From positions 124,001-188,000 of the forward strand of contig CAXHJY010000304.1 of NCBI GenBank assembly GCA_964016885.1: a DNA stretch of 64,000 nt, read 5' to 3'. The stretch's first letter is position 1; every line of letters begins with the position of its first letter. Shown one piece after another: positions 1 through 56,657 of the stretch. The DNA is from Eledone cirrhosa (Eukaryota). The notes beneath the pieces are model-generated. The model saw nothing but the letters and a program-made list of their open reading frames with translations. It was not told the DNA's origin and did not search any database. Both the position numbers and the translations under genes were made by a program.

Positions 1-1216
1 TGACAATATATTGCCAAGTTCGTTATAAGCATCAGAATCAAAAGCAAACAAAACCAAAAATTATTTACCAAATCCTGTCTAGCAGAAAACATTCCAAAAG
101 TTTAGGATACCCATTTGATCTACAGATGGTCTTATATTTAATATAGAAGTTTATCTAGTGTAAAATTTATTCGATATATTTGGAGCATCAGCTTTTAGGG
201 TAGTTTAATTATTCATGAAGAATGTTTAAAATAAAAAGGAATCGAAAGATTTATCGGCGAGTTCCATAAATAATTATAAATCAAATTAAATATACTACAT
301 TTTAAATTTATATTTATATTTAAAAGTTGAGTTCAATCTATGTCTGCAGCAACTGAATAAATTTGTCCGTAAATTAAGGGAATTTTTAGATTTTAGTATA
401 AAGAATATCTCCTCCGCGCAGAGGTCACATGTCTCAGAGGATGAATTAAAAGGAATCCCTCTTGAGACTATATTCCAAGCCGTTGAATATCCAACGTTAT
501 CATACCTAAGCCTGATAGTGATGTTGAGGATTTTTTGCTTGGATCTGTGAAAGAATTCTTGTGGTTATTATAGCGAAGTTTAAATTCTGTCGAGGTGGAA
601 CCAACATAGTTAAAAGAATTTAAGTCCGTTTTAACATTACAGTTGTATATTATATTTTTAACTAAGCAATTGTTATTTAACGGACATTTAGATCTATCTC
701 TACAGTTACATTTGTTAACTTGGATATTATTTATGCTATTATCGGTATTTTGGCTAGGTTTTAAATTCCTATTATTTATTCTATTAATATTTTGTGCTAA
801 ATTTTTGGTGGATGAGTAGGTTAATTTTATAGTATGTCTATTGAAAATTGAGTGATACCTATGTGTTCTAGGGAAGCGATTATCAAGAGCATTAAAAAAT
901 AGTTTAGCGATGTGGGTTTTAATGTTTAGTGAGAAAGGGGGGGCAAACCATATTATATTCCTAGTTCTATTTCTTTTTTGGCTTTTGGAATTATTGTAAT
1001 GCTTTCTATTATAGTTGTTAAAGTTGTTGCCGTAATTAAAATTGTTGTTATTTTGGTTAGTTTGTCTATTATTATCTATGTACATAATTGTATCACTATA
1101 TCCTGCTCTAGCTAACGCTTCATTGTAATACTGGGCTTTTTCGTCGAAAATCTTTTTATTAGATGAGATTCTAGAGATACGATTTTGAACAGAGTTTACT
1201 ATAGTATTTTTAACAG
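1..1216 (-). mobile_element. Penelope-like element (RT thumb/linker + GIY-YIG endonuclease), left arm of a fold-back; runs off the window start
   Basis: The minus-strand reading gives VQNRISRISSNKKIFDE...IIWFAPPFS...CNCRDRSKCPLNNNC...IIYNC..YVGSTSTEFKLRYNNHKNSF. Positions 1-1164 are the reverse complement of 1217-2380. Confidence 0.9.
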
Positions 1217-2870
1217 ATCTAATAAAAAGATTTTCGACGAAAAGGCCCAGTATTACAATGAAGCGTTAGCTAGAGCAGGATATAGTGATACAATTATGTA
1301 CATAGATAATAATAGACAAACTAACCAAAATAACAACAATTTTAATTACGGCAACAACTTTAACAACTATAATAGAAAGCATTACAATAATTCCAAAAGC
1401 CAAAAAAGAAATAGAACTAGGAATATAATATGGTTTGCCCCCCCTTTCTCACTAAACATTAAAACCCACATCGCTAAACTATTTTTTAATGCTCTTGATA
1501 ATCGCTTCCCTAGAACACATAGGTATCACTCAATTTTCAATAGACATACTATAAAATTAACCTACTCATCCACCAAAAATTTAGCACAAAATATTAATAG
1601 AATAAATAATAGGAATTTAAAACCTAGCCAAAATACCGATAATAGCATAAATAATATCCAAGTTAACAAATGTAACTGTAGAGATAGATCTAAATGTCCG
1701 TTAAATAACAATTGCTTAGTTAAAAATATAATATACAACTGTAATGTTAAAACGGACTTAAATTCTTTTAACTATGTTGGTTCCACCTCGACAGAATTTA
1801 AACTTCGCTATAATAACCACAAGAATTCTTTCACAGATCCAAGCAAAAAATCCTCAACATCACTATCAGGCTTAGGCATGATAACGTTGGATATTCAACG
1901 GCTTGGAATATAGTCTCAAGAGGGATTCCTTTTAATTCATCCTCTGAGACATGTGACCTCTGCGCGGAGGAGATATTCTTTATACTAAAATCTAAAAATT
2001 CCCTTAATTTACGGACAAATTTATTCAGTTGCTGCAGACATAGATTGAACTCAACTTTTAAATATAAATATAAATTTAAAATGTAGTATATTTAATTTGA
2101 TTTATAATTATTTATGGAACTCGCCGATAAATCTTTCGATTCCTTTTTATTTTAAACATTCTTCATGAATAATTAAACTACCCTAAAAGCTGATGCTCCA
2201 AATATATCGAATAAATTTTACACTAGATAAACTTCTATATTAAATATAAGACCATCTGTAGATCAAATGGGTATCCTAAACTTTTGGAATGTTTTCTGCT
2301 AGACAGGATTTGGTAAATAATTTTTGGTTTTGTTTGCTTTTGATTCTGATGCTTATAACGAACTTGGCAATATATTGTCAATTAACTTTGAAGGGTTGAT
2401 CTCTGTGGTTGATTTGCGTGGCATACTATGTTTTATTTTTATTTTAATATTTTTAATATTTTTAATATTTTTATTTTTAATATTTTTTGATTTTTTTTTT
2501 GTTTTTTATTTATTTTTTGTTTCTGATATTTTTATTTTTATTTTTATTGATATATTGATATCTGTTCTCTATTTATGCTTGAACGATAATCATGTAGAGT
2601 AAAGACATGAATAGTATTGTTAAAATTAATGTAGACTCTATATATATTTGTGTGTATGTACACATATATCTATACTAGAATTTTTATAGCACAACGAGAA
2701 TGTTTTCGTGTGAAACAGGAATTTGCAGAGCTGATCACGTAAATTCACATGGATGTATATAGTATAAAATCTGGGATAACCTTCTATTTTATCTCAACTC
2801 TAATATAAACCTAGGAATTTTAAACTAGACATATGATCATTATTTTTCACACATTATTGATACGTGTCTC

Positions 2871-8031: not shown

Positions 8032-10285
8032 ATCGAATGTGCTCAGGCGCTCACAGTCCTCTGGCAAACGGACCCGGCGATCAGTGGAGACTCCACTTCA
8101 ACATTCTATAGAGGGTTGATCCACAGCAAGTGCGACGACACGCTCAGAGAAACTCTAGGCGTAGAGGAGGATGAACTGGCCAGTCTGTTCGGTAGGACCT
8201 TCCACCCGGGACCAATGGACAACTTCCAAAAGTCCCTGGCCTGGCAGTGCTACCAAGGAGCTCTACCAGTTCGAGACAAGCTCTACAGACATGCGCAATC
8301 CTGACCAGGTCCATACACAACAACCTCCACCTCATGCGATACATCATAGAGAGAGTAGGGTGTAAACCCGGCTTCGGTGGGGCCTTGATCAACTTGGATC
8401 AGTCTAAGGCTTTCGTTAGGGTTGACCATTGTTACCTGAATGTGGTGCTTGAGGCGGCAGGCTTTGGACCCGTGTTCAGGGGCTGGATTGCTGCAATGCA
8501 CAGCAGCAACATCTGCTCAAGGGTCAAGGTGAACGGCTACCTCTCGGAGCCATTCCATATCACACGATCCATCCGACAGGGATGCCCTCTCTCCCCCCTT
8601 CTGTACGTACTGACTCTCGAGCCACTACTGCGGAAATTGGAGATATTGCAGGGCATCCCTCTGGAACCGGGACTGTGGAAAGCGGCGTTGGCCTACGCCG
8701 ACGACGTGACAGTAATGGTGTCGAGCACCTCGCAAATCGGGGAGGTCGGCACCTTACTGGAGGAATACAAAAGGTTCACAGGAGCGAAGCTGAATCAGGA
8801 CAAATCCGTCGGTTTGCAACTTGGAACGTGGAGAGGCAAACCGATGCCTTCTAATGGCATCGTCGGATGCTGGACGGTAGGACCGGTAAAGCTGCTCGGG
8901 GTCTGGTTTGGTCCGGACCTCCAGGTGGAGAAGAACTGGAACGAGGTGACGGCCAAGGTGTTTCTGCTCACCCAGAAGTGGGCTGAGTGCAAACTATCCT
9001 TGAAAGGTCGAGCGGAGGTGGCGAACACTTTTATAGCATCCGTCATCTACTACCGCTTGACCGTCGTGCCTTGTCCAGCCAAAACACTCACCAAAATGGA
9101 GTGCGCGCTCTTCCAATTCCCTTGGAAGAAACGGGCCCCTTTGGTGAGAAGATCCATCTGCTGCCAATACCCTTCAAACGGAGGGTTGGGGATGCCATGG
9201 CTGACGATGCGCAAACACGCGCTCAGGTTGCGGCACCTCCACGTATTCCTCATCGGACAACCGGTGTGGGCCCCGTTCGTGAGGCGAGCCTTCCCACAAC
9301 TCGTCTCGCTGACCGAGCTGCAGTCCTGAGTCAAGCAAAGACCGAGGAAAATGGGCGACTGGCACATCGAATGTGCTCAGGCGCTCAGTCCTCTGGCAAA
9401 TGGACCCGGCGATCAGTGGAGACTCCACTTCGACATTCTATAGAGGGTTGGTCCGCAGCAAGTGCGACGACGCGCTCGGAGAAACTCTGGGCGTAGAGTA
9501 GGATAAACTGGCCAGTCTGTTCGGTAGGACCTTCCGCTCAGGACCAATGGACAACTTCCAAAAGTCTCTGGCCTGGCAGTGCTACCGAGGAGCTCTACCA
9601 GTTCGAGACAAGCTCTACAGACACGGGTGCCCGGGTAGGGACCCTTCGAAAAAGATATGTCCGAGATGCGTGCGCGACAAGGAAACCATCGCGCACGCAT
9701 TTGTACACTGCCCGGGTGTTACCGACCTGTGGGGCTATGTAGAATGACTATTGTCGCGGGTGGGACCAATCCAGTTGACCACCGAGTCCTTTGTCATGAT
9801 CAAACCACCACCCTCCTTCAAAAACGAGGGAGAGGCGGTTTTCGTATGTGTTATGGCTATGGTGTAAGAGGTTATATGGTAGACGAGGTTAAAAGGGTTG
9901 AGGTCAGACACCTTTCTCTCCGGCGAGCAACTGATTCGTTTTTTCAAGTATCATTTTGGAAGAAGAATCAGGATGGAGAGAGAGGTGCTGTACCCCAGCA
10001 AATTTTATAAAAGGTGGGTGAATGTGGCAAAGATGGCCCGAGTGGTTGGGCCTTCTCTCTATATAAGCCTGTAGGTTGAGGAAAAAGAGGAAGAGCGGAA
10101 GGGAGTACTCACTCTTGGTGCTCCTGGAGATGAGGGTTGTACATTTTTTCGGGGTGTGTACAACCCCGGTGTAACGCCTCCCCCCTATTGGGGATTTCAA
10201 TTGTTATTTATTATTGTATTAATAGTTTTATTTTCATATACCTATATGTAAACTCCCCATTTGTATTTGTCCCCTTCTTTTGTGC
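8032..10285 (+). mobile_element. L1/Tx1-clade LINE, 5'-truncated, with RT and C-terminal CCHC zinc knuckle
   Basis: RT motifs LDQSKAFVRVDH, IRQGCPLSPLLY and AYADDVT; CPRCVRDKETIAHAFVHC; premature TGA at 9327; AATAAA near 10276; (ATCT)n on both flanks. Confidence 0.92.
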
Positions 10286-12492: not shown

Positions 12493-12744
12493 CGTTAAAC
12501 GATGATGATGATGATGATGATGATATATATATATATATATATATATATATCATCATCATCATCATCATCTACATCATCATATATATATATATATATATAA
12601 CCAAAGATTAATATGGTTCATTGATTACTCAATGAATACAATTTTACAATAGATTAAAAGCACTCAACAAAAAGTTTTCCTGGAGTTTTTAATATTATTC
12701 AAAATATTAACAAATGAAAGATAATCACATAATCAAAATATATG

Positions 12745-12809
12745 CTTTCTTATATATATTTCAAAGGTACTGTGTTTTTTTTTTTTCAGTACGTCTTCAT
12801 CAGATAAAA
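12745..12809 (-). ncRNA. Minimal hammerhead ribozyme motif (mirror copy)
   Basis: Near reverse complement of the motif at 15600-15663. Confidence 0.6.
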
Positions 12810-15599
12810 TATATGATTTGATATATGACATACCGCTACAGTTTTGATTATACAATTCCAGTATTGGCAGTGATTTATTTCATCAAATCTCAATGTTTAT
12901 ATACCACAAAGTATGATAAACTTAAGTATGATAAACTTAAAGAAAAAAAGGACGTAGAGCAAATTAGAGATATGAGAGAGGGTGTAAATAGGAGGAAAGG
13001 CAAGAAAAAATAAATAAATACATATATAAATACATACATAAATAGATAAAAGAATGAATGAGTAAAAAAAATATATAAAAAAGAAGAGAGGAATAACGAC
13101 AAAAGATGGAAAGTGCAAGGAAAGTAAAAGGAACAGAGGGGGTAAAGTGAAATAAAGAAAAATAAAGGAAGCATCAAATAGAGGGGGCTAGAGAAAAAAA
13201 CCGTTGTTTTCAAATGCTCAATCAAATAGGACATCCAATCAATTCAACTAAACAATTGAATATCTTTAGTATTTGATTATGCATTAGCTAATTATACTTA
13301 TATATTATATCAAAATTAATTATTTCAAAATTAATTATTTCAAAATTAATTATTTCAAAATTAATTATTTTCTATAGCAATCACATATATCGTTTAATTA
13401 AAAATTTATATAATTTAATTTAACTCATTATAAATAATTATTTTTAATTTTAAGGTAAGATATTCTATAAATATTTAGTTACAACTTTAAAAGAATTAAT
13501 TTTTAAAGCGTATTTAAATAATTATTACATATGCATTAAAATCTAATACCATACATAAATCAGCATCAATACATATAATATATTTAGATCCTATATTACT
13601 CAAATTATTTAATTATGATATTCTCTTTATAAAATCTTCACTATTCTTCAATTTTCATTTAATTTCTAGGATTAAACTGCAGTTACATTTACTCTCAAAA
13701 GTTTAATTTCATTAATTTAATGAAAGGTTATTTTTACTTCTGTATTTACTTATTTTGATATATAGTTTCATTTTAATGATAGTCTGTATATTATTACTCT
13801 ACACATTTCAAAACTAATATAATTCAACAAGCTAGTCAAAAAGAAAGGAAATTTTGAAAACCATAAATCATCTATTGCAAATATCATAAAAGATGTCTAG
13901 TAAAATATTGAACTATCCTAATCAAAACAAAGGATAACGAGACTCTTAATGAAATAATTCTAATACATATAAATAACTTATTACCACAATAAGGCAAAAA
14001 CATATATATATTAAATTATTAATTGACAATATTTTTTCGAAACTTATACAATGCTTGGAAAGTTTTACCAATTTTATGGTGACAACTACTGAATAATTCG
14101 TTTTTTTTTTAATTAAATTCTCATAATTTGTAATTACCTGTAGAGTCTCGAAGTTACAAAGATTGCAATCTTGCAAAACAGTTGCGTTCTGATAGGAATT
14201 GGTTTTCTTTAACTTGGTCCAAAAGATGAAGTATTTAGTATTATTGTCCTTTAAAGACCATATTAATTGTGAAAGTGAAGTTGAAAATTTCTTATCCGGT
14301 TTAGTAAAAGACTGTCTGTGATTATACCAACGTTCCTTAACTTTAGATGAAGTGGCACCAATATACTTATATATATTATTATTTGTCTTAATGGTACATT
14401 TATATACTATATTCTTGTCAAGGACATTCGGACTTCTTTCTACAATTACATTTCTTGCCTCAAGTGTCCTTTAGATGATTTATGGTTTTCAAAATATTGC
14501 GGAATGTGTGAGTAGAGATATGTTATAAATGTTTATATGGTGAATGAGTTATCCTCCTTTTGTTTACATTGTCCATAAAAATGTCCTTTCTTTTTAACTA
14601 ACTTGCTGAATTATATTAGTTTTGAAATATGTAGACTAATAATATACAGACTATCATTAAAATGAAACTATATATCAAAATAAGTAAATACAGAAGTAAA
14701 AATAACCTTTCATTAAATTAATGAAATTAAACTTTTGAGAGTAAATGTAACTGCAGTTTAATCCTAGAAATTAAATGAAAATTAAAGAATAGTGAAGATT
14801 TTATAAAGAGAATATCATAATTAAATAATTTGAGTAATATAGGATCTAAATATATTATATGTATTGATGCTGATTTATGTATGGTATTAGATTTTAATAC
14901 ATATGTAATAATTGGTTAAATACGCTTTAAAAATTAATTCTTTTAAAGTTGTAACTAAATATTTATAGAATATCTTACCTTAAAATTAAAAATAATTATT
15001 TATAATGAGTTAAATTAAATTATATAAATTTTTAATTAAACGATATATGTGATTGCTATAGAAAATAATCTATACTGATTAATTTTGATATAATATATAA
15101 GTATAATTAGCTAATGCATAATCAAATACTAAAGATATTCAATTGTTTAGTTGAATTGATTGGATGTCCTATTTGATTGAGCATTTGAAAACAACGGTTT
15201 TTTTCTCTATCCCCCTCTATTTGATGCTTCCTTTATTTTTCTTTATTTCACTTTACCCCCCCCCCCCCCTCTGTTCCTTTTACTTTCCTTGCACTTTCCA
15301 TCTTTTGTCGTTATTCCTCTCTTCTTTTTTATATATTTTTTTTACTCATTCATTCTTTTATCTATTTATGTATGTATTTATATATGTATTTATTTTTTTT
15401 TTCTTGCCGTTCCTCCTATTTACACCCTCTCTCATATCTCTAATTTGCTCTACGTCCTTTTCTTCTTTAAGTTTATCATACTTAAGTTTATCATATTATT
15501 TGTGGTATATAAACATTGAGATTTGATGAAATAAATCACTGCCAATACTGGAATTGTATAATCAAAACTGTAGCGGTATGTCATATATCAAATCATATA

Positions 15600-15663
15600 T
15601 TTTATCTGATGAAGACGTACTGAAAAAAAAAAACACAGTACCTTTGAAATATATATAATAAAG
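15600..15663 (+). ncRNA. Minimal type I hammerhead ribozyme motif
   Basis: TTTTAT-CTGATGA-stem II (AG..GTACTG/CAGTAC..CT)-GAAA-TATATA-TA-ATAAAG. Confidence 0.65.
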
Positions 15664-15725
15664 CATATATTTTGATTATGTGATTATCTTTCATTTGTTA
15701 ATATTTTGAATAATATATATATTAT

Positions 15726-18819: not shown

Positions 18820-19280
18820 TCATGTGTAGTATAGTGATGGTAATTATGAGGATTATGAAGATGAGGTTGGTGATGATGGTGGTGGAGGTGGTGGTGGTGG
18901 TGTGGCAGCAGCATTGGTGGTTTTAGTAGTGGTGACGGTGCTGCTGGTGTTAGCAGTGGTAATGAGGACGATAATAGAGATGAGGATGATGATGAGGATG
19001 AAGATGAAGATGGTGATGATAATGTTATCATCATCCTACGCAAAACACCACTGATGAAGACAATGGTTGTAAAGAGGGCATGTCTTATGTGGTGGTCGTA
19101 GTGGTGGTGGTTGTGATAGTGCTTGTGGTAGTGATGGTGGGGATGATGGTGATGATGATGATGATGATAACAGTGGTGGTGGTGATAGGGGTGAATAAGA
19201 AGAGGAGAAGGATGTGATGGCATAATTATCACAAACCACACAACATCACCACACCACCACACTATACCACACCACACCAG
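18820..19280. repeat. Degenerate (GGT)/(GAT) trinucleotide tract; similar (CAT)n tract at 20030-20340
   Basis: Low-complexity sequence that gives poly-H/S/M/D ORFs in several frames. Confidence 0.85.
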
Positions 19281-19457
19281 ACCAGAAAGACAGACAGACA
19301 GATATGGACACAGAGAGCTCCATTGATTTGCCCAGTTTCAGTCATGTGACTCACACATCCCACTATCTTCAGAAGAACTATCTTACCATTCAAGAGCATT
19401 ACACCCCAAAGTAGTTGAGTGGAGCACATCCTCTGTATTATTGTGGACAACACTGAC

Positions 19458-19521
19458 ATGATGGTTTCTAGGTGCCAACAACTTTCCTCATTCTTTTTGT
19501 TGGTTGTACTAGCTTCCAGCT
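19458..19521 (+). CDS. Coding exon 1 (signal peptide) of an uncharacterised secreted/GPI-anchored protein
   Basis: ATGATG start, MMVSRCQQLSSFFLLVVLASS plus 1 nt, then a consensus GTAAGT donor at 19522. Phase 1 matches the acceptor at 25595. Confidence 0.72.
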
Positions 19522-19595
19522 GTAAGTAGACTTGACTTTTTTGGGGGGTTTTCCTTGTAGTTGTATATTTGACTTTATTTTCTTTTGCTAGTTAA

Positions 19596-19817
19596 CCCTT
19601 TAGTATTTACATTACTCTATTCTTTTCTATTATATTTTCACGGTAAAGTGTTTACCTCACATAATTATCTCACATAATATCAAATCTGCAAGATTTTGAT
19701 ATTATTTATTTTGAGAATCATACCTTAACATCAGTATGAGAGGCTGGTTATAACCAGTTTGAACAGAAAGAGGTGAGAGAATTCTGGCCAGATATGGCCA
19801 GTTTAAATGATAAAGGG
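19596..19817. mobile_element. piggyBac-like MITE, second copy
   Basis: TTAA|CCCTTTAG...TAAAGGG|TTAA; reverse-complement homologue of 6678-6898. Confidence 0.78.
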
Positions 19818-20053
19818 TTAAGGTGTTAGATTCAAGATCATATCATGAGTTCAATTCTTGGACTGGGCAGTGTATTGTGTTATTGAGAAAAATACTTTAC
19901 TTCACATAGCTCCCTCTGCCAGTAATTGGGACTGGCAGATAGTATCAGCAATGGAAAGAGCAATGGAAATATTATTCCTTTACTCTGATCTGACAATCAG
20001 CTCCTTTCCCCTCCTTTACTATAGTAATCATAATCATTATCCCTTTCATCACT

Positions 20054-20096
<43 letters not shown>

Positions 20097-23000
20097 CTGT
20101 CATCCTCAACATCATCATTATTACAGTCCCAAATTTTCCATCAACTTCTTTTTTATCACCTTCATCTTTGTTATCATCGTTATCATAATTGCTGTCTTCA
20201 TCATTTTTGTTATCATTGTCACTGCTATCTTCATCATCATCATTTTCATTAACATCACTATCATCATCATCATCATTTTTATTGCTTGTATTCATCATCA
20301 TCATTACCACAATCATGATCAGCATATCTACTTTATCTTTCATGCTGACTGGATGCTGGTTGGATAGGTCTAAAATGTGTGTTAAATATTTCTTGTTATG
20401 TTATTTACAAGGCCCAACATATCATTTGCAGGGCCTCACTTTGATAATTAAAACACAAAGGCTATATAATTTTGTTAGAAATATCGTAATGACGTAATGA
20501 AAAGTTTAAGCAGCAGAACATAAAAACATCCTCTTGCTCATGAGGTCATAAGTTTAATTTCCAGCAACACATTATGCCCTTGAGCAAAACACTTTATTTC
20601 ACATTGACCTGTCAATTCAGCTCAAAAATGAGATGAACTTGTAATTCAAAAGCTAGCCATGCCATACAGAATCTCCTTGAGACTTACATTAAGGTTACAT
20701 ATATTTGTGAAATATTCAGCTACTTGCATGTGAGCAGGCTGTTCCGTTGATCATATTAACTGGAACACTCAATGGTGAAACAAATGGAGGTTCAACAACA
20801 TCTGTTTGTTTCATTGTAATCTTTTTTGTTTTGTTTTTTTCTTTTATCTTATTTTGAATTCTGCTTATCATTTACAAGTTTTTAATTATTATCGGGGATG
20901 GGTGGTAATCTGCGCTTCTTCCTATATTGTTATTGCTGTATTGAACCTTTAGGATTGAAACTATTCTTCCAAATTGGGGTCTTTCTCTGTGAATATTTAA
21001 TAAATTCTGTTAAATTCAAGTGGTTTTCTTTAGATAAACATAGGAACATAAGCATTTTAATGCCGTTTTCCTAAAAAAAAGTAGAGATTAGCCTTGTGGG
21101 CCCCATAACAAATTTCATATTCCTCATCATGAGTGCATTTCTCAGGCAAAATTTTACAGCCAGATGTCCTTCCTGGTGCCAACATCTTTAGTCACCTATT
21201 AAGGCAGATAGAGATTCAGTGTATGTTCAATGGAACAGCCTGATCATGAAGTTAACATGTAAGTGGTTGAGCATTCTACCAACACCCATACCCTTAACGA
21301 AGTTCTCAGGGAGATTCAGCATGACAGAGAATGTGTCAAGGCTGACCCTTTGAATTACTGGTACAATTCCTTTTTGCCAGCTCAGACCACTAGAGCAACA
21401 TGATATAAAGTATCTTACTGAAAGACAGAATGTGCTGCCAGGAATCAAACTCGTGACCTGAAGAACATGAGTATGTATGTATATATACATACACATATAC
21501 ACACAGATACGTTTGGGCAAGTGTATAGGTAGTAGTATGAATATAGTTCATATTCATTTTCAGAATATCTTAAAATAACTTTTTTTCTAAATTGTTAGTT
21601 CAATCTACTTTACATTTACCACATCTATTATATTTGCAATAAACCCATGCTAGCATGGAAGATAGACATTAAACGACGATGATGATGATGATGATGGTGA
21701 TACTGTCATGTAAAATTATTTTCAGTAGTCTGGACTGCAGGAATTTCCAAAACTCAGAGTAGCAACAAATTATAATCTCAGTAAGTTGATTTAGATGGGT
21801 GTTTGGGTGCTATTTCTAGCCTGTCATATTGTCTTGATATATAGAGATATATGTTAATTAGTAGTTCAATGATGCAAGCTTTTGGACACCAAGCAGTTTT
21901 GACAACGATATGATCTGTATGCTATCTATTCAATATTTTCTCTACTTCCAAAGAATTTCCTCCTGAAGACAGAATAATTTTTCTAATACTGGTTGTTTTA
22001 ATTTATTCAGATAATTAATTGTTTCTTAATTCCAGAAACTGCACTTGGGGTTAGTAGGTTAATATATGAGTAAAACTGACTTATTTTAGTTTGTCTAACT
22101 TATATCGCCCCCTCCCTGTTGAGATTTTGGCTAACGTTTAATATATGTATGTGTGTAGGTGTATAATTTTATATATATATGTGTGTGTGTGTTTCAAAAT
22201 AGAAAATTCAATCAAATTTAACCCTTTTGCTACTATACAGCCTGAAACTGCCTTGATTCCATGATACAAAGCTGTTTGTTTTAAAGTCTTTATATTTATC
22301 TAAAAATCTCCCATCACAATTTTATGTAAGAAGCTTTGTTAAGTTATGTATCACACACCAGCTTAATAATGAGAAAATTAGTTATAATACTAAATTCTTC
22401 AAAATTCTTGCTTATTTTCAAAATGAATTGAAAATCATATATAGTGTCTTTCATTTGCAATATATATATGAAAAAGTTGATAAAAAGATTTACAAGAAGT
22501 CTTGAAAAGAGATTTCAGTTTTTTAATCTTTGATATAAGAAGGAAATCTGGTTCTAAAAAGACATTGAAAGTTTGTCCTAAAGCAGAACGTAGGGAAATT
22601 TGAGAGAAAAAAAAGCAACCTAAAAAAACTACAGCAATTGTCTGCATAACCAACAAGCTAAGTAAACAAATTACAATAAGACATGAAATGTCATGTGTTA
22701 TCTGTTCCAACTGTTTTTTCTGAGTTTAAATCCTAGGACCTACTCCTGTTGTAGACTTAATTTATCACTTTATTTAACAATACATCCTGTTCTCTGGTTT
22801 GAGGATACCTACATCACTTTCTCTCTACAAATGGTTTTGGAGGAACTGAAAAAGGTCATTGGCACTGCCTTTCACATGCTGACTAAATAATTTTAAATTA
22901 AAATAACAATAAAAAGATATTAAACAGAATTATTGTCATTTTTATGTCTTTCCATATTTGCATGGGTTTAGTCAAATCATCTCCAGAACAGCATCTCTCC

Positions 23001-24169
23001 ACTTGTTTCTTTCTTTTGTCATTTCCTCTGTAGTTTCTCGTGGTCAACTTTCACCTCCTCTGCCCATGCATTTCTTGGTCTTCCTCTTCCACTTCAAACT
23101 TCTAGCATTTCTTCAACCAGCAATTATCATCCATATGCATTACATTCATGTACCAGTGCAATCTTCTTTCTTACATGCAACATTTGATAACTCTTATGCC
23201 CAGCTTTTCTTTCAACTCATCTGAATCATAGAAAGTGACTCATATATAGATCCACAGAGATCTTCTTTTGAGAAAATCAAGGACCAATTTCTACTGTAGT
23301 ATATCCGAAGGTCTATGTCTCACACACTTCTTTTTATCTGCATTAACTCTTATCTTCTTGAAATGATTTAGCAGGAAATATCTAAAAATGGTTTCTTAAT
23401 TCACATGTTTATAGTATCTTTACGAGTGGACAGATTGTTGAGATAATTTTAATATTGGTGTAAGGACCTTGTTTTTTTTATTATTAACATCTTGCAATGA
23501 TTCAGCAGAAAATATCTAAAATTTAATTCACGTTTATAATTGTAAAATTTGAACTTTTCAAGAATATCTTGCTAATGGGATTCATTAATTCAAATGTTTA
23601 CATTATCTTTACTAGTAAACAGATGATTGTGAGAATTTCCAATATTAGAGTAAATACTTTAATTTTTAATGTTATGTAGTCATAATATGTCATAAGAATG
23701 TCTTACTAATGTAGTTTTATGTGGTATAGGATGTTAAGAATTAATAACACAACACACACACTTCTATACTCTTTTTAGATAATTTCTACTAAATCATTGC
23801 TAGGTGTTAAGATTAAAAAAAAACAAAGTCCTTACACCAATATTGCAATTTTCTACAAATAATAGCTTCCCTACGCTCTTTCCTCTGTACACTTCTGTAT
23901 ACAAATGTTTTGTTGTATGCAATCTAGACACTCACAGCAAACTTGCTCCACTTCCATTAACAGAGACCTCAACAACATCTTTTAACCCTTTCGACACTAA
24001 CCTGAAACCACTTCTGGTTTTATAATATAAAGCCTCTAATTTTAAATTGTTCATATTAAAATTCAAACCTGCCATTACAATTTTAAGTAAGAGACCTTTA
24101 AATTATGTTCCAATGTCTCATTAAAGCCCCTAAAACATGGAGGGACAAAACTTTTCAAGGCACTGACAG

Positions 24170-25310
24170 TTATCTGTCAGGAGATATGGGAAACAAAGCA
24201 GTGGCCAAAGGAATGGACCCAATCATTGATAATATCCATTCCCAAGACAGGCAACTTAAGACTCTGCCAGAATTACAGAACAGTCAGTCTAATTAACTAA
24301 TAAAATACTGCTAAGAGTTTGTCTAAATAGGTTTAAAGGGAAGGTAGAAGATATCCTTGTTGAAGAATAGGTAGGATTCAGGCCAAATATTAGTGCAATG
24401 GAGCAGATATTTAACATCAGATTGCTAACCAAGAAACTTCAGCAACACCAATCTGACCTCTATCATAATTTCATCGACTTCAAAAGAAACTTGTGGTTTG
24501 TGACAGGTGATGAAGGAATACAACTATGATAGCAACCTCATCCAAATAATCCAAGCACTGAACACAAATTCAAACAGTGTAGTTCTCATGAATAACAAAC
24601 ATCAGAGACTTCTTCAAGAGAACAGTTGGACTTCAACAAGGATGTCTCCTCTTTCTGGTGCTTATCAACATCTTCTTGGAGAACATAATGCAAGAAACAC
24701 TCCAAACTTCCACACTTCTGCTTCTATTGAAGGATGGTCTCTTTCCAATCTATACTTTACTGATGATATTAACTTGTTATGAAGCAGTGAAGTAGAACTG
24801 CTGAAGCTTACCACCAGACTGGAAAGAGAGTCAGGATCATACAGAATCAGTTCAAAAAAGAGCAATGTTCTGGTTAATAGTCATAACCAAAATATAACAA
24901 ACAACATCATGTTGAACAATGAAAAACTTGAAGAAATGGATACCTTCAAGTACCTAGGATTTACTTTGACTAAAGATGGCAGATCACTAAAGGAGATAAC
25001 AAGACTCAGCTTGGCATCTTCCACCACGATGAAGCTGAACATCATAAGGAAAAGCAACTCTATTAGTTTTCAAACAAGGCTCAAATTGTTCAAAACCCTG
25101 GGGATTTAGATCCTTTTCATACAGCTTATATGGAATGTAGAATCCAGCTTTCAAGTACAAGTGTTTCAGAAGGCATCCCATATATAGAACACTAGACAAA
25201 TAACTATACTGGTCAAAAGGAGCCACTCTTTGCAATGGTGAAAAAAGAAAGCTCACTAGGTATGGTTATATATCCAGCTACAATACCATGTCTAAAGCCA
25301 TCCACAGGAC
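24170..25310 (+). mobile_element. Decayed RTE-clade LINE (RT region)
   Basis: Broken RT motifs (QNYRTVSLI, NFIDFK, QGCLL, LYFTDDINLL, TFKYLGFTLTKDG) with many stops and frameshifts. Confidence 0.8.
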
Positions 25311-25594
25311 TCCTACAGTTCTAGAAGTGTTTCATTCATATGAAATCATCAGGAAAGTGAATATATATATATGTAGTTCAGAATAACAGAAAACAAAAAA
25401 CAAACACAGGAGTAAATGTTACAAATATATATATATATGTTTTATTTATTTTCGTTATTTTTATGTATAAGTTACATTTAAAATTTAAAATGTCATGTTT
25501 GAGACACACACACACAAATTTGTGGCCTTATGCCTATATTAAGTATCAGTATATATATTTGTGTCATAACCTTAATTCTCTTTTTCTGTTTCAG

Positions 25595-26040
25595 TGATCT
25601 CCCTTGTCACAGCTGAGAAAAGACAATATGATAAAAATCCATCATGGTATGACCGTGACGGCTCAGCAGGCAACCGCAGGATGGGGAGCAACCCACGCGA
25701 TGACGGAGATCGAAGAGGCAACAACGGACGAGGTGACCGAAATGACCGAGGTGACCGAGATGAACATGGGGAGCAAGGCTCCCGTGAAGACCATATGGTT
25801 CATGTTGGCCGTGACGATCATAATGACCATGATGATCATGATAGCCATGACTATGAGTTAGAGCACTCTGACAATGATGGTCACAACCACAAGGGTCCTC
25901 ATTACCAAAGCACTGACAAAACCAGGACCCACACTGGAACCAGCAAAAACAGGAATGGTAGTGCTTCCATTGGTTCCCACATCACCTGGTTCCAAAGGAT
26001 TGTGTTGGCTGGATCTTCAATACTGATGGTCCTTATGTAA
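25595..26040 (+). CDS. Coding exon 2 (terminal) of an uncharacterised RGD- and His/Asp-rich protein with a GPI-type C-terminus
   Basis: Strong acceptor TTCTCTTTTTCTGTTTCAG; GC-richer open frame not resembling a transposon; completes the signal peptide (LISLVTA); ends NGSASIGSHITWFQRIVLAGSSILMVLM*. Confidence 0.78.
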
Positions 26041-26541
26041 ATGGGAGTGATTGCCCCTCCACACATGTCACCATCACCACTATCCCTCCAACCAAGCACA
26101 CACCTAGTGGACAGTGGTGGGTGCGGTGAGGTGGGGTGGGGTGGAGTGCATGCAATTACCCCCTCCTTCCACCACCACTACCTCCGTTGTTTAACACTAA
26201 ACATGAGACAGACCCTTTGTTGGATCCAAATAATACCAGGTGAAGCCACTTGTTGAAGTCCAGACCCTTCGTTAGTTGTTCCTTTATTAGCGATCCATTA
26301 GTAGGATAAATTAGAATTGTAATATTGACTATTGATTATTTTTTTGTAGGACATTGTTTCTGCCCCTTCCCTTTTGTGGTCCTCTGTGCAGGTCACTCAC
26401 CTACAAATGAATTCAATCTTTAATATATAAGAGTTAATGTGTGTAATGATGCTTTATAATGTGTAATGTATACCTTGTAAGAGTATTAGCTCTATACTAT
26501 ATTAAACAGTATATAATATAATATGATATTATATTTTATAT

Positions 26542-26575
<34 letters not shown>

Positions 26576-26926
26576 GCATATATATTTATTTATAAATTTA
26601 TAAATTAGGTTCTGATCTAGTGAACTTAGTAGTCCACAAAGAAGGAAGAACTCAATATTTATAATAATAGAGTAAATATATAGGTTTTCTTACTACATAG
26701 CTACGTTTCAACAAATTTAGTGTTTTCTGTTTAGTGAACACTAGCTTTGCTGAAACAGTGTAGCTATGTTGTAAGAAAATGAATCAATCAACTAATATAT
26801 ATATATGAATTTTCATAAAATTGTAGGAATCTCAAATGCGAGAGTAGCTGTAAACAACTGATTGGTATGTGCATAGCAACATTTTATGAAAATTCATATA
26901 CACTCATCACTTCAATCCTTTTCAAT

Positions 26927-27005
<79 letters not shown>

Positions 27006-27254
27006 GTGTTAAAGACATGACTAGGTGTTTCAGCTATTCACTATTATATCAGGGGTTATTTTGTCACATGTTTCTTATGAGTTCTTTGCAGCTCATCTGG
27101 AAGACCAAAGTTCATAAACCCAATATCAACGTTTCTTCTAGACTTTTCACAGTCTCATCATCAGGAAGTAGTGTTGTTGGGTTCTGTACTGCCTATTTTA
27201 GTAAATGTAAAAAGAAATAAACTTAAACTAAAAATAAAACTGAAACAGTCATCT

Positions 27255-27320: not shown

Positions 27321-27840
27321 TATATATATATATATACATATACATCTACATATATATATACGTATATATACACACACACATATATATATACATACATACA
27401 CACATACATATATATACAATACACACACAAACACACACACATATATGTGTGTGTGTGTGTATTAATATGTATTGTAACATGAGAGTGTCAATATGGACCA
27501 ATAATAATAATAGTAATAATAATAATAATTCACAGCTGTAACTGTATAAAGATAATTTGTAGTTCTAATATTATTGCTGTTTATCTTTTGTAATCAATTA
27601 ATGTGTACACATACAGATTATTAAAATACCCATCAAATTTGATACAATGACCATTGTGTTTCGTTGTGTTCTTTCTTTCTTCCTTATATTCTGTTCTTTG
27701 TTGTCATCATTGTTACCAAGATCACCACCAGCAACAACACCACAAACAATTACAACAATTTTAGTCACAACAAAGTGGCACCAATGTTTGTTATAGCAAT
27801 TTTAATCACACCAATGCTATACCAATGTCAGTTACAACAA

Positions 27841-28700
27841 TTTTAGTCACACCAGTGCCTGTTACATCACTGTTATAGGTACAATAATTTTAGTTACACC
27901 AGTGCCTGTTACATCACTGTTATAGGTACAATAATTTTAGTTACACCAGTGTCTGTTACATCACTGTTATAGGTACAATAATTTTAGTTACACCAGTGTC
28001 TGTTACATCACTGTTATAGGTACAATAATTTTAGTTACACCAGTGCCTGTTACATCACTGTTATAGGTACAATAATTTTAGTTACACCAGTGTCTGTTAC
28101 ATCACTGTTATAGGTACAATAATTTTAGTTACACCAGTGTCTGTTACATCACTGTTATAGGTACAATAATTTTAGTCACACCAGTGCCTGTTACATCACT
28201 GTTATAGGTACAATAATTTTAGTTACACCAGTGTCTGTTACATCACTGTTATAGGTACAATAATTTTAGTTACAACAGTGCCTGTTACATCACTGTTATA
28301 GGTACAATAATTTTAGTTACACCAGTGCCTGTTACATCACTGTTATAGGTACAATAATTTTAGTTACAACAGTGCCTGTTACATCACTGTTATAGGTACA
28401 ATAATTTAAGTTACACCAGTGCCTGTTACATCAATGTCAGTTACAACAATTTTAGTTACACCAGTGCCTGTTACATCACTGTTATAGGTACAATAATTTA
28501 AGTTACACCAGTGCCTGTTACATCAATGTCAGTTACAACAATTTTAGTTATACCCGTGCCTGTTACATTAATGTCAGTTACAACAATTTTAGTCACATCA
28601 GTGCCTGTTACATCAATATTAGTTACAATATTTTTATTCACACCAGTGCCTGTTACATCAATATTATTTACAATAATTTTAGTCACAGTAATGTTGATTA
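27841..28700. repeat. 47-bp minisatellite (about 14 copies) grading into 45-bp variants
   Basis: Unit CACCAGTGCCTGTTACATCACTGTTATAGGTACAATAATTTTAGTTA with period 47 (27850, 27897, ...). Degenerate related repeats extend to about 29210. Confidence 0.95.
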
Positions 28701-29681
28701 CAGTATTTGTAGTCACACTAATGTTACATCAATGTTACACCAAATTATGCCGATGTTAGTTGTCCCAATTTTAGTCCCATCAATGTCAGTCACAACAGCA
28801 TTACACCAATATTTGTTACAACAATGTTAGTCACAATAACATAACACCCATATTAGTTACAACAATGCTAGTCACAACAATGTCACTCCAATGTTTGTTA
28901 CACCAATGTTAGTCACAACACTGTTCCACAAATGTTAGCTGCATCAATGTTATATCAGTGATACATCAATGTTACACCAATGTTAGTCACATCAGTGTTA
29001 CACCAATGTTAGTCACATTAGTGTTACACCAACATTAGTTAATGTTAATTACACCAATGTCACACAAATGTTAGTTACAGCAATGTCACATCAGTGTTAA
29101 TTACACCAATGTCACATGACTGTTAGTTACAATGTTACACAAATGTTATGCCAATGTTACACTGATGTCACACCAATGTTAGACCTATGTTAACCACACC
29201 AATGTAACACCATCATTGATACAGAAAACCTATGATCAAAGCAATCCTATTATCATCTTGCCATCTTTTTCCTCTGTGCAGAAAACATAAGACCATATTC
29301 TCTATACACAACCATCTGGTATTTGGGGAAGGAGCAGTTCTTTACAGATTCATCCTTTTTTGTTTTAAATAGTATGTGGTGTGATTTCAATGAGATTTGA
29401 CTACTACATCTAACAGTATGGGTAATCATATAGAGGCTCTCTCGTTTGCTCATTTTTGTTGATCAAAGGTATTCCAGCTGCGACTATCATAATTGTTTTT
29501 TTCACACTCATCCTTCATTTTTAAGACAGAAGGGTATGATTTTTCTAGCAGCTCAAGCAAACATGTAGAGGCTTCCTGATTGGTGTATTATCAAGATTGA
29601 TGTGAGAATTAATCTTTCACCCAGATTAACCCACTTGTGACTGTATTTCTGATGAAATACCTTCTATTTCAATTAATTAAT

Positions 29682-49868: not shown

Positions 49869-50085
49869 GGAAATCGAAATTGCGTAAGGGTCATGATTTT
49901 TTTCTCAAATATTTTATTATTGGTCGCGTTCTATCTGGAATACAATTGTGGAATTAACAGAATATCTTTAGCAGAAATCCTTCCTAAATTCTAGCTAGAT
50001 TTATTTCCTCCTCATTCAATGGTTGTTGTATGGAATCCTCGCTATTACTGCTATTATACACATACACACACGCATATATATATAT

Positions 50086-50348
50086 AACGAAGGAAATGTG
50101 GTAAGGAACCAGATGGACCATAACGCACCAAAGTACTCAATACTTAGGGTAGTAGAGTGGGTAATAGGAACAAGTATGACCCCGACGGCATAGCTCAAGC
50201 CGTGTTTCGAGTCCAGAATTAGCCGTCGAAACGGCTTGAGCTCTGCCGTCGGGGTCATACTTGTTCCTATTACCCACTCTACTACCCTAAGTATTGAGTA
50301 CTTTGGTGCGTTATGGTCCATCTGGTTCCTTACCACATTTCCTTCGTT
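50086..50348. repeat. Near-perfect ~124-bp-arm palindrome in (TA)n, probably a PLE tail fold-back
   Basis: Arms 50086-50210 and 50226-50348 with a 15-nt loop. The motif CACTCTACTA..GTATTGAGTAC is shared with the PLE tail at about 44950. Confidence 0.9.
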
Positions 50349-51476
50349 ATATATATATATATATATATATATATTTGAAATGACGTCACAACGTAAGTGA
50401 CTATAATAATGGTCGATCATTATTAAATTGTGTGAAGCACCCCTGAAGGCTGATAAAGTGAACAGACGCCTGCAAGGAAACGAACCGTGCATCGTATATA
50501 TATATATAGTGGAGTTTCAGAATAAGTACCTCACTTTAATACTCTTTTACCTGTTCCAGCCATCTGGCTGAGGCCATGCTGGGGCACCGCCTTTGGAAAT
50601 GGCTTTTTTTTTCCTTCTTGGAATTATGCGTTTTAAACAGGTAGCTTTGCGATTCTGCAAAATAATGATTTCAGCCTTCCCCTCCCAGAACATGTAAACT
50701 AAAAATTTAGGTAAAAAAAACGAAAAGATAGGTTGTTCCTTCCAGTGATTCGCCCATCCAACCTATTTAAGGATATCCGGCACAATATCCAACATGTCCT
50801 TCTTTGGTTAAAACGATGGGGTTGTGAGGAAGATTTGGCTTCTATTTCTAGTGTGTCGAGAGATCACCTAGAAGCTTCCTGGTTAGTTCATGGGAAATAG
50901 AAGGGAGAGCTGGGGTGTATTGTGAGGAAGATTTGGTTATTTCTAGTATGTCTAGTGATCATGTAGAGGCTTCCTTGTTCGTGAGAAATAGCAGAAGTGA
51001 AGGTTGGAGTGTGGTGCGAGGAAGATTTAGTTGCTATTTCTAATATGTCGAATGACTAGTTTCCCCGAGGACAATTTGCAAGGGGGAATGTTCTGGTTAC
51101 CTGCCCAAAACAAGGTTCCTATAAACTCTGTCAAATGCGAAATAATAATTTTTTTCATTAAAGAGTTCGTATTTAAAACATTTTGTCAAATTAGGTTTCA
51201 AATAGTATCTTATTGTTTCTACTTTTGGCACGTTGAGTTGAAGGAGAGTTTGGAATTTATTGAGGTGTCATGGGGTGGGTTAGTGGTGCTGGTGAAGAAT
51301 GGAATAATAAAAGTAAGAACTACTGTTCTGTATAGTAGTCTATTGCGGATATTAAAACCGGTTACACACACATACAGATCCTGATGAACGTGATAATATC
51401 GATTTATAAAATTAAATAAATAATCGATATATATATATATATATATATATTCATTTTATTAAGACTAAATGGTGAG

Positions 51477-54772: not shown

Positions 54773-55385
54773 AATAGGTATCTGTATATGTAGTAGTGTG
54801 TACAATATTGAGCTGATTAATTTAAAACCCATGTGGAATGGTGTGTATGTTGAAAGTAAACTGTTAATTCTGTTATCTGGCTATGTCAGATAATGTAAGT
54901 ATTGGGAAGGGACTTGAGAGAGGGGAGAGAAGGTTCGTTATATCGAGTTTAAAACCTGTTTATTTGGCAGTATTGGTAGAGGGTCGGACACCATGCTTTG
55001 TAGCATAGAGTTACCTCCCTTTATGATCTGAGTTCAAATCCCCCCGAGGTTAACTTTACCTTTCATCCTTACGGGGTCGATAAAATAAAGTACCAGTAAT
55101 GCACTGGGTTATTTATGGCCTTGTGCCAAAAGTAGAAACAATTATATATTTTTATTGAACAGGGTTGAGAGAGACATCAGCTGGTCTCTGTTCTGACTCT
55201 CACTACAGTTTCTATTTCTTTATTAATTCACATTAAATTACAAAGTGCTGCTTGACATTGACATATATTTGTTTATATATATGTTTGTATATGAATGTAT
55301 ATATATATATATATGTATATATATATTTATGTATATGTATATATATATTTATATATGTGTATATGTATGTATGTATGTATATATG

Positions 55386-55417
<32 letters not shown>

Positions 55418-55575
55418 TGTATGTATGTATGTATGTATGTATGTATATATATGTATATGTATGTATATATATGTATATGTATGTATGTATATATGTATGT
55501 ATGTATATATGTATATGTATGTATATATGTATATGTATGTATGTGTATATGTATGTATGTATATATGTATGTATG

Positions 55576-55609
<34 letters not shown>

Positions 55610-55649
55610 TATATGTATGTATGTATATATATATGTATGTATGTATGTA

Positions 55650-55718
<69 letters not shown>

Positions 55719-55795
55719 ATATATATGTATGTATATATATATGTATGTATATATATATGTATGTATATATGTATGTATGTATATATATATGTTAT

Positions 55796-56433
55796 GTCAG
55801 GTCACCAGTTGGTGCTACTGGTAACATGTATCCCAGTACAACCTGTCTCATGGTCGGGTCGTTGGCGACTAAACTGGCAACCCCACCAAGGTTTCTTGGT
55901 GAGGAGGGTGACTTTGGACATCCTGCAGGACTAAAAACAAAACCTGTCAAAGGGCAAAGGAGCTCTTAAGAGTCAATGGCCATCCAAAATCACCGGGAGA
56001 GATGACCCCTTTAGCCTTAGTCAAGGCAGAATTCTAGGAGAAGGAAAACTCTGATATAACACCTGCAACCCTGATGGTATCCAATGATGTTGACTTGTTC
56101 TTCTTTTTGGTAAATAGCATCTTGGTTAAGAGAGTGGGACTGGCTTTGTGCAGTGCCTTTGCTCACTATAAAAGCTTCACGGCACAGGCATTGCTTTATA
56201 TCTGGAGATCTCTCTGCACTTGTCCTCACATGGGCCCAGCACTATGTGTCAATAATTGTCCTACCATGGGCCTAGCACTATGTGTCAATAATTGTCATAG
56301 GTGTAGTGTTTGTACCAGAGGTTTCAGGTCGCTGGCTGGACTAAAAAGTCACACTCGTTCGGCGCTTCGGTAGGGGTTATCCTACATGGATGTAAAGTAG
56401 TGGCCGTACTCGAAAACGAGTTGGCAGCCACCA
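55796..56433 (+). mobile_element. Short non-autonomous RTE-like unit, copy 1
   Basis: Direct repeat of 59028-59636. The 3' part encodes a C2H2-like finger ([17 protein letters not shown]) and runs into a microsatellite tail. Confidence 0.65.
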
Positions 56434-56657
56434 TATATATATGTATGTATATATATATGTATGTATATATATATGTATGTATATATATATGTATGTATAT
56501 ATATATGTATGTGTATATATATATGTATGTGTATATATATATGTATGTATATATGTATGTATGTATATATATATGTATGTATATATATATATGTATGTAT
56601 ATATATATATGTGTATATATATATATGTATGTATATATATATATGTATGTATATATG

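What the first reader, a model, noticed from the sequence alone, without database searches (positions are those of the whole stretch)
19458..26040. Unrecognised two-exon gene: secreted, GPI-type protein with tandem RGD motifs and a His/Asp tract
Seen: a signal-peptide exon (19458-19521, GTAAGT donor, phase 1) splices in frame across a 6-kb intron to 25595-26040. The 169-aa product is MMVSRCQQLSSFFLLVVLASSLISLVTA/EKR-QYDKNPSWYDRDGSAGN-RR-MGSNPRDDGD-RR-GNNG-RGD-RND-RGD-RDEHG...HVGRDDHNDHDDHDSHDYELEHSDNDGHNHKGPH...KNR-NGS-ASIGSHITWFQRIVLAGSSILMVLM. The mature part has no Cys and no recognisable folded domain. Established: small residues + spacer + terminal hydrophobic run is the GPI signal pattern; RGD is the integrin ligand motif; His/Asp clusters often bind Cu/Zn/Ca; KR followed by Gln is typical of convertase-released pyroglutamyl peptides. 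Inference: a lineage-specific, disordered cell-surface adhesion or metal-binding protein (prion/Shadoo-like in layout, with no homology claimed), possibly shedding peptides. The ORF track misses exon 1.
Basis: partly seen in the sequence, partly recalled or inferred. Interest (0 to 1): 0.8.

Follow-up and report, generated by a model that had tools for sequence, protein, structure and literature searches.

The report
Probable lipid-anchored disordered octopus surface protein
This is a real two-exon gene, found so far only in octopuses and mislabelled as a splicing factor in two database records, that probably makes a small floppy protein tethered to the outside of cells; its cell-adhesion and hormone-like motifs look incidental and its job is untested.

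Summary
The gene is real. The exons join in frame to 169 aa, and three Octopus orthologues start with the same exon-1 peptide. Two are named 'U1 snRNP 70 kDa', wrongly: there is no RRM, and the likeness is Arg/Asp low complexity. No non-octopus relative was found. The signal peptide and last 28 residues are far more conserved than the mature chain (43 of 56 vs 37 of 129 columns invariant). A rule-conforming GPI omega site lies at N142/G143/S144 in 4 of 4. The middle is predicted disordered. What persists is an Arg-only, net-neutral Arg/Asp block, a D-R-R-G-N site and four His. Best reading: a probably GPI-tethered disordered polyampholyte acting through composition, CD24/Shadoo-like in layout but no member of either family. 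It resembles the published immature-neuron marker obimac0019980, but identity is untested and the E-value disagrees. No splice-junction read, GPI predictor or expression data could be obtained.

The parts
19341..19350 (+). GTCATGTGAC E-box of the MiT-TFE/USF type (consensus recalled), about 110 nt upstream of the ATG; possible promoter element
   Evidence: 2 matches in the window vs 0.16 expected, 3 of 100 shuffles reach 2. The motif was picked by eye first, and the other match lies in a satellite. Function untested.
19458..19521 (+). Coding exon 1 (aa 1-21 plus one base): n- and h-region of the signal peptide
   Evidence: 17 of 21 residues identical to each of 3 orthologues; upstream in-frame stop at 19416-19418
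19522..25594 (+). Phase-1 GT-AG intron, 6073 nt, rich in repeats
   Evidence: GTAAGT donor and pyrimidine tract with CAG acceptor; the orthologue proteins are colinear across the join; no junction read seen
25595..26040 (+). Coding exon 2: end of the signal peptide (cleavage after Ala28 inferred), mature chain, GPI-type signal, stop
   Evidence: orthologues
25654..25794 (+). Arg/Asp mixed-charge block (aa 42-88): every basic residue is Arg, net charge about 0
   Evidence: fraction charged 0.49 here and 0.67-0.70 in the orthologues; net charge per residue -0.02 to +0.02; Arg/(Arg+Lys) = 1.0 in 4 of 4
25708..25722 (+). Invariant D-R-R-G-N (aa 60-64), candidate convertase site
   Evidence: Invariant in 4 of 4; preceded by Arg to give R-x-R-R in 3 of 4, not in the window protein
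25729..25763 (+). 18-bp tandem duplication that encodes both RGD motifs (aa 67-69 and 73-75)
   Evidence: period 18, 1.9 copies, 94% matches; RGD columns not invariant
25765..25902 (+). His/Asp-rich acidic tract (aa 79-124); conserved core H-x3-D-G-H-x-H at aa 112-120 (25864-25890)
   Evidence: His91, 112, 118 and 120 invariant (4 of 13 His in the protein)
25954..26037 (+). GPI-type attachment signal: omega candidates N142/G143/S144, spacer, hydrophobic tail ending at the C-terminus
   Evidence: rule from passages of 10.1101/838680; 20 of 28 columns invariant
26041..27238 (+). Putative 3' UTR with ATTAAA at 26501 and AATAAA at 27216 and 27233 (extent inferred)
   Evidence: Signals found; the 3' end was not shown

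Best explanation
A conserved octopus gene for a small, probably GPI-anchored, intrinsically disordered cell-surface protein. SHOWN: exon structure, orthologues in three Octopus species, strongly conserved termini around a fast-changing middle. INFERRED FROM RULES: the signal peptide is cut after Ala28; the transamidase cuts at N142/G143/S144 and adds a GPI lipid; an unfolded chain of about 114 residues projects from the outer leaflet. INFERRED MECHANISM: the chain works by composition, not by a fold or one motif. Its distal Arg/Asp block is a net-neutral polyampholyte making many weak Arg-mediated contacts with itself or with polyanions such as sulfated glycans, so it tunes cell-cell or cell-matrix contact. 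The proximal acidic His cluster can bind Zn/Cu and change the chain's stickiness. The invariant D-R-R-G-N may be a convertase clip that sheds the first 30 or so residues. Odds: real gene about 0.95, GPI anchor about 0.7, this mode of action about 0.4.
For: Orthologues in 3 species with the same start and end. Signal peptide 23 of 28 and last 28 residues 20 of 28 columns invariant, against 37 of 129 in the mature part (Fisher P = 2e-9; columns are not independent). Three adjacent omega candidates with a polar linker (mean hydropathy -2.2 to -3.1), Gly/Ala/Ser at omega+2 and a 16-18-residue tail in 4 of 4. Only 13 uncharged residues at the end and no cytosolic tail; a crude insertion score of +3.7 to +4.0 on a recalled scale argues against a stable TM helix. 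AlphaFold of the O. bimaculoides orthologue gives two helices (3-30, 156-177), with 122 of 178 residues under pLDDT 50. Arg-only, net-neutral block in 4 of 4 despite indels; basic-acidic dipeptides enriched over shuffles in the three Octopus proteins (P <= 0.004). Arg, unlike Lys, drives cohesion of mixed-charge domains (passages of 10.1101/771592).
Against: SignalP, NetGPI and PredGPI were not available; the omega rule is permissive and had no null control. The tail holds Gln-Arg 14-15 residues from the end. In the window protein itself charge alternation is not above shuffles (8 vs 5.6 dipeptides, P = 0.16). All 4 proteins miss the published mixed-charge criterion (over 60 aa at 0.7 charged): 0.51 here, 0.64-0.67 in the others. 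In that paper net-neutral domains condensed only modestly and high salt kept them soluble, which matters in the body fluid of a marine animal. Low pLDDT from a 4-sequence alignment is weak evidence of disorder. Conserved termini with a drifting middle also fit a mature chain under little constraint. No tissue or junction data.
Confidence: 0.45

Rival explanations
1. Same GPI-anchored protein, but its main job is binding or buffering Zn/Cu at the cell surface through the His/Asp tract; the Arg/Asp block is a spacer.
For: His91, 112, 118 and 120 are invariant in 4 of 4, three of them within H-x3-D-G-H-x-H. The His/Asp block is 14-19% His and net acidic. His-rich disordered N-termini occur in PrP and ZIP ectodomains (passages of PMC2745754).
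Against: 9 of 13 His are not invariant, and several are Arg in the orthologues. The tract is only 15-19 of 46 identical. The Pfam ZIP match is noise (E = 2.5).
Confidence: 0.15
2. Not GPI-anchored: the C-terminal segment stays on as a short membrane anchor or a hydrophobic assembly tail of a secreted matrix or mucus protein.
For: The tail is unusually conserved for a piece that is cut off (20 of 28 invariant, including W-F-Q-R) and is modelled as one 22-residue helix.
Against: Invariant small residues sit where the omega rule puts them. There is no cytosolic tail, the hydrophobic run is 13 residues, and the insertion score is unfavourable. The signal peptide, also cut off, is equally conserved (23 of 28).
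Confidence: 0.15
3. Cell-surface RGD ligand for an integrin.
For: Two RGDs in each of 4 proteins, in a flexible region; shuffle P = 0.042 for the window's mature chain.
Against: P = 0.07-0.11 in the orthologues. Both RGDs here lie in one 18-bp duplication, so they are not independent. No RGD column is invariant; aligned triplets read RGN, RDD, RND or RVD. RGD is one form of a degenerate R-x-D repeat with 6-8 copies per protein.
Confidence: 0.12
4. Precursor whose product is a convertase-released signalling peptide.
For: KR follows the signal peptide in 3 of 4 and D-R-R-G-N is invariant; Pro and Tyr in the first peptide are invariant.
Against: Gln follows KR in 1 of 4; O. vulgaris lacks the KR and has only one dibasic site. 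The peptide region is 8-11 of 22 identical, with indels. By inspection of the alignment there is no Gly-dibasic amidation signal.
Confidence: 0.08
5. Annotation artefact, pseudogene, or the last exon of a larger gene.
For: No junction read was obtained; all four sequences are gene predictions.
Against: The frame is intact in 4 species through several in-frame indels. There is an in-frame stop upstream of the ATG. All three orthologue models start at the same Met. No longer form was found among 8000 scored candidates (weak by the tool's own note).
Confidence: 0.03

Closest known systems
XP_014786561.1 (O. bimaculoides), XP_029638843.1 (O. sinensis), CAI9725478.1 (O. vulgaris)
   Same: Orthologues by end-to-end likeness: same start, same end, 45-48% identity over exon 2 by tblastn, 23 of 28 in the signal peptide. 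Synteny not tested.
   Different: The window protein is shorter (169 vs 178-183 aa), poorer in Arg/Asp and richer in His. Two records are named 'U1 snRNP 70 kDa', the third 'hypothetical'.
CD24/CD52-type small GPI-anchored proteins
   Same: Signal peptide + short unfolded chain + GPI signal. That their termini are better conserved than the mature peptide is recalled. CD24 is the best or second-best named cluster in both Atlas searches (0.77; 0.76), below the tool's 0.9 bar, so a lead only.
   Different: The mature chain is about 113 aa and Arg/Asp/His-rich with only 11% Ser+Thr, not a roughly 30-aa Ser/Thr glycopeptide (recalled). No Pfam CD24 match.
Prion family (PrP, Doppel, Shadoo)
   Same: GPI-type surface protein with a basic low-complexity region and His clusters; Shadoo is of similar size (147 aa, table in PMC2745754).
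   Different: No Cys in the mature chain, so no cysteine-flanked core. No central hydrophobic segment (best 11-residue hydropathy -0.84). No sequence match.
U1-70K and Arg-rich mixed-charge (basic-acidic dipeptide) domains
   Same: Arg/Asp-rich, net-neutral low-complexity block; the likely cause of the database name.
   Different: No RRM. It has a signal peptide, so it is predicted extracellular. The block is shorter and less charged than the published criterion.
obimac0019980 (O. bimaculoides immature-neuron marker; PMC9815951 Methods S1)
   Same: Described as having an O. sinensis orthologue and no distant homologue, a signal peptide plus an HHpred TM-like segment, DeepTMHMM 'globular + signal peptide', and a disordered model with two helices. 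Our model of the orthologue shows the same two-helix picture.
   Different: Identity untested: no sequence in the text I could read. The reported E of about 3e-88 was not reproduced; default BLASTP gives 9e-66, and 0 of 48 settings gave 1e-87 to 1e-89 (nearest 1e-92). Many orphan secreted proteins fit that description.

Membership tests
GPI-anchored proteins | N-terminal signal peptide | tested here: met
   Best 19-residue hydropathy 2.1-2.2 at aa 9-27; Val at -3 and Ala at -1 of the inferred cut; 23 of 28 invariant. SignalP not available.
GPI-anchored proteins | Polar linker, small omega residue, Gly/Ala/Ser at omega+2 | tested here: met
   Three adjacent candidates in 4 of 4 proteins (rule)
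GPI-anchored proteins | Hydrophobic tail from about omega+10 to the C-terminus, no cytosolic tail | tested here: met
   Tail of 16-18 aa, mean hydropathy 1.4-1.7, last 13 uncharged; contains one Gln-Arg
GPI-anchored proteins | GPI actually attached (PI-PLC release, ethanolamine at omega) | not testable with these tools
   Needs a bench test
U1 snRNP 70 kDa | RRM / U1-70K N-terminal domain | tested here: not met
   No RRM among Pfam matches up to E = 10 or E = 1 (4 of 4 members scanned); 0 PDB matches
Prion family (PrP/Doppel/Shadoo) | Cysteine-flanked folded core (PrP, Doppel) | tested here: not met
   0% Cys in the mature chain of 4 of 4
Prion family (PrP/Doppel/Shadoo) | Central hydrophobic segment (PrP, Shadoo) | tested here: not met
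   Best 11-residue hydropathy -0.03 to -1.09 in 4 of 4
CD24/CD52-type GPI mucin peptides | Very short Ser/Thr-rich mature peptide (definition recalled) | tested here: not met
   113-127 aa, Ser+Thr 11%
CD24/CD52-type GPI mucin peptides | Sequence homology to the family | tested here: not met
   No Pfam match; Atlas scores 0.76-0.77 are under the bar
Arg-rich mixed-charge domains (10.1101/771592) | Over 60 aa with fraction charged of at least 0.7 | tested here: not met
   Best 61-residue window: 0.51 here, 0.64-0.67 in the orthologues
Arg-rich mixed-charge domains (10.1101/771592) | Balanced charge, Arg rather than Lys | tested here: met
   In the block bounded by conserved motifs: net charge -0.02 to +0.02, Arg-only in 4 of 4. 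The window's most charged 61-mer is not balanced (9 basic, 22 acidic).
RGD integrin ligands | RGD conserved at a fixed position and above compositional chance | tested here: not met
   No invariant RGD column; P = 0.04-0.11; one duplication
RGD integrin ligands | RGD-dependent integrin binding | not testable with these tools
   Needs an adhesion assay
Neuropeptide precursors | Conserved peptide between conserved basic sites, pGlu or amidation signal | tested here: not met
   KR-Gln in 1 of 4, one dibasic site in 4 of 4, peptide 8-11 of 22 identical

The most novel reading that the evidence does not exclude
An octopod-invented GPI protein puts a nuclear-speckle-type Arg/Asp mixed-charge domain on the outside of cells. 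There it self-associates in cis and trans as a metal-tunable surface condensate that acts as homophilic glue or lubricant. In the boldest form it is the unidentified pan-immature-neuron marker obimac0019980, an independently evolved counterpart of vertebrate CD24 on newly migrated neurons.
Probability: 0.08. Interest if true: 0.8.

Novelty: new variant of a known kind. Interest (0 to 1): 0.4.

Why it matters
It corrects a database label: two records called U1 snRNP 70 kDa are probably secretory-pathway surface proteins. It also defines a small, apparently octopus-restricted family with a testable anatomy. The layout (disordered chain on a GPI anchor) is known; the cargo, an Arg-only mixed-charge block plus a His cluster, is unusual outside the nucleus as far as I recall, which I did not survey. 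If the gene is obimac0019980, it gives a surface handle on the roughly 31% of optic-lobe neurons classed as immature (PMC9815951) for sorting and tracing. One sequence look-up decides that.

Tried and rejected
Genome: none held, so paralogues were sought only in the window (none beyond low-complexity noise). No orthologue DNA, so no dN/dS or synteny.

Expression: no RNA holder listed (4 runs of unrecorded kind, one study). In one search, contigs of X1-X3 cover exon 1 with flanks (19187-19618) and run from the intron into exon 2 (from 25454/25472 to 26503) with 0 differences; these may be the window's own source. X4's listed pieces at 25669-26503, 26603-26742 and 27016-27207 have depth 218-407, and its listed intron pieces 2-3. 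That looks transcript-like, but the run kind is not on record and contig depth cannot rank parts, so I do not count it. The 19521-25595 joint was not among the 15 of 1045 joints shown.

Homologue searches: 1 hit of 17 candidates; 2 of 2363; none in longer proteins; 1 representative among 1.84 billion; 0 of 181 pattern matches in metagenomes. Pfam: only sub-cut-off PFF1_TM and Zip. PDB: 0. Atlas: best 0.80, structure TM up to 0.39. Absence from squid and cuttlefish may reflect sparse databases and low complexity.

Literature: the orthologue accessions occur in no held paper; octopus with U1-70K name gave 0; topic searches named nothing like it except obimac0019980; one search gave 0. Supplement searches were empty in 6 of 6 papers; one scanned file and MMC1 of PMC9815951 could not be read, and the latter may map the gene ids. 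One search found nothing relevant. The obimac0019980 E-value was not reproduced. Earlier scan findings: none.

Other: the Fisher line was ill-formed and was redone. An in-frame acceptor at 25613 was rejected because it would remove residues present in all orthologues. No fold search or complex prediction was run, as the model is low-confidence (pTM 0.17).
Full report
OBSERVATION. The coordinates are right. Exon 1 (19458-19521, 64 nt) ends at a GTAAGT donor; exon 2 (25595-26040, 446 nt) follows a pyrimidine tract and CAG. Together they give 169 residues and a stop. An in-frame stop lies 13 codons upstream of the ATG. The flanks are microsatellites and retroelement debris; my list of frames of 80 codons or more showed no other obvious host gene (by inspection; Pfam on 9 selected frames gave only LINE domains in 2 of 9).

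THE GENE IS REAL AND ALREADY PREDICTED ELSEWHERE. Exon 2 alone found one protein among 17 candidates, O. bimaculoides XP_014786561.1 (E = 1e-17). Its N-terminus matches exon 1 at 17 of 21 residues and continues into exon 2 at the same acceptor. O. vulgaris CAI9725478.1 and O. sinensis XP_029638843.1 are further orthologues. All start at the same Met and end at the same residue, which answers the 'last exon of a larger protein' objection. They are predictions; I obtained no junction read. A profile of three sequences against 1.84 billion representatives returned only this cluster, so the family looks octopus-restricted within these collections, with the caveat of sparse squid data and low complexity. 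Two records carry the name 'U1 snRNP 70 kDa', but no RRM or PDB match exists. The name most likely comes from Arg/Asp low complexity (inference).

WHAT IS CONSERVED. Across four sequences, 23 of 28 signal-peptide columns and 20 of 28 C-terminal columns are invariant, against 37 of 129 in the mature part, 22 of them gapped (Fisher P = 2e-9, columns not independent). By the rule in the introduction of 10.1101/838680 (passages), N142, G143 and S144 are omega candidates, and the aligned residues qualify in 4 of 4: polar linker, Gly/Ala/Ser at omega+2, 16-18-residue hydrophobic tail, nothing after it. The tail has only 13 uncharged residues and scores +3.7 to +4.0 on a recalled, position-independent insertion scale, poor for a TM helix. 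The rule is permissive and I ran no null control or dedicated predictor. AlphaFold of the O. bimaculoides protein shows helices only at 3-30 and 156-177 (pTM 0.17). Inside the mature chain three things persist. First, a block (aa 42-88) in which every basic residue is Arg and net charge is about zero in 4 of 4; basic-acidic dipeptides are enriched in the three Octopus proteins (P <= 0.004) but not in the window protein (P = 0.16). Second, an invariant D-R-R-G-N, reading R-x-R-R in 3 of 4 (furin consensus recalled). Third, four of 13 His, three of them in H-x3-D-G-H-x-H.

WHAT IS NOT. But shuffles of the same residues reach two RGDs with P = 0.04-0.05 here and 0.07-0.11 in the orthologues. The two in the window lie in one 18-bp duplication, no RGD column is invariant, and RGD is one form of an R-x-D repeat with 6-8 copies. 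KR-Gln occurs in 1 of 4; O. vulgaris lacks the KR. The N-G-S sequon is window-only and sits at the omega site.

MECHANISM. Most likely the protein enters the ER, loses both terminal signals, receives a GPI anchor (about 0.7) and stands on the cell surface as an unfolded chain of about 114 residues. I commit, at about 0.45 overall, to action by composition: multivalent Arg-mediated contacts of the distal polyampholyte with itself or with surface polyanions, modulated by Zn/Cu at the His core and possibly by a clip at D-R-R. Support is an analogy: Arg, not Lys, drives cohesion of mixed-charge domains (10.1101/771592, passages). Against it: all four miss that paper's criterion (0.51 here and 0.64-0.67 elsewhere, vs 0.7 over more than 60 aa), net-neutral variants condensed only modestly and were salt-sensitive, and a drifting middle also fits a weakly constrained spacer. 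Rivals: metal buffer 0.15, non-GPI tail 0.15, integrin ligand 0.12, peptide precursor 0.08, artefact 0.03.

COMPARISON. It is laid out like CD24/CD52 and Shadoo but fails membership of both: the mature chain is long and poor in Ser/Thr, with no Cys core or central hydrophobic segment (prion features from passages of PMC2745754; CD24 features recalled). CD24 appeared in both Atlas searches at 0.76-0.77, below the bar. A lead: the octopus optic-lobe atlas describes obimac0019980, a marker of all nine immature-neuron clusters, as octopus-restricted apart from a weak cuttlefish hit, with a signal peptide, a TM-like segment, disorder and two helices (PMC9815951, passages, Methods S1 read whole; preprint passages). 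That fits qualitatively, but the stated E of about 3e-88 to O. sinensis was not reproduced (default 9e-66; 0 of 48 settings within a factor of ten) and no sequence was readable. I put identity at roughly 0.1-0.15. Genes shared across octopods are reported as highest in male reproductive tissue (PMC7656900, passages), so a sperm-surface role is also open. The accessions were found in no held paper and in none of 6 papers' supplements (only those searches were seen for these six). Unreadable supplements, above all MMC1 of PMC9815951, could change this.

VERDICT. Observation confirmed; interpretation partly supported. A real, uncharacterised, mislabelled octopus family with a known layout and an unusual cargo. 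Interest 0.4; the most novel reading has probability 0.08 and would deserve 0.8.

Noticed in passing
window 19341-19350 (+): GTCATGTGAC E-box (MiT-TFE/USF-type consensus, recalled) about 110 nt upstream of the ATG; 2 in the window vs 0.16 expected, the second in a satellite at 29111-29120.
   Followed up: partly
window 1-2380: The first 2380 bases form one inverted repeat (98.8%) with mirrored open frames; either an assembly fold-back or an inverted retroelement pair. Pfam gave no match for the 248-aa frame.
   Followed up: partly
window 12692-13855 and 14578-15716; 50074-50360: A 1.2-kb inverted repeat pair (94%) around a 174-aa minus-strand frame (13949-14470, no Pfam match), and a 290-bp palindrome.
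   Followed up: no
window 60867-64000 (+): LINE-type element: a 442-aa upstream frame followed by an endonuclease plus reverse transcriptase frame, open to the window's end. A further RT fragment lies at 8196-9326.
   Followed up: partly
window 27833-28687: 47-bp satellite, 18 copies, 92% matches, with related 41-, 26- and 11-bp arrays to 29196, about 600 nt downstream of the last AATAAA.
   Followed up: no
window 55237-60314: About 5 kb of (TA/TG)-type microsatellite broken by three copies of a short unique-looking unit near 56038-56400, 58370-58500 and 59269-59600.
   Followed up: no
window 25669-27207, run X4: One run of unrecorded kind has high-depth contigs over exon 2 and the downstream kilobase and low-depth intron pieces; worth re-laying on the junction alone. 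Not counted as evidence.
   Followed up: partly
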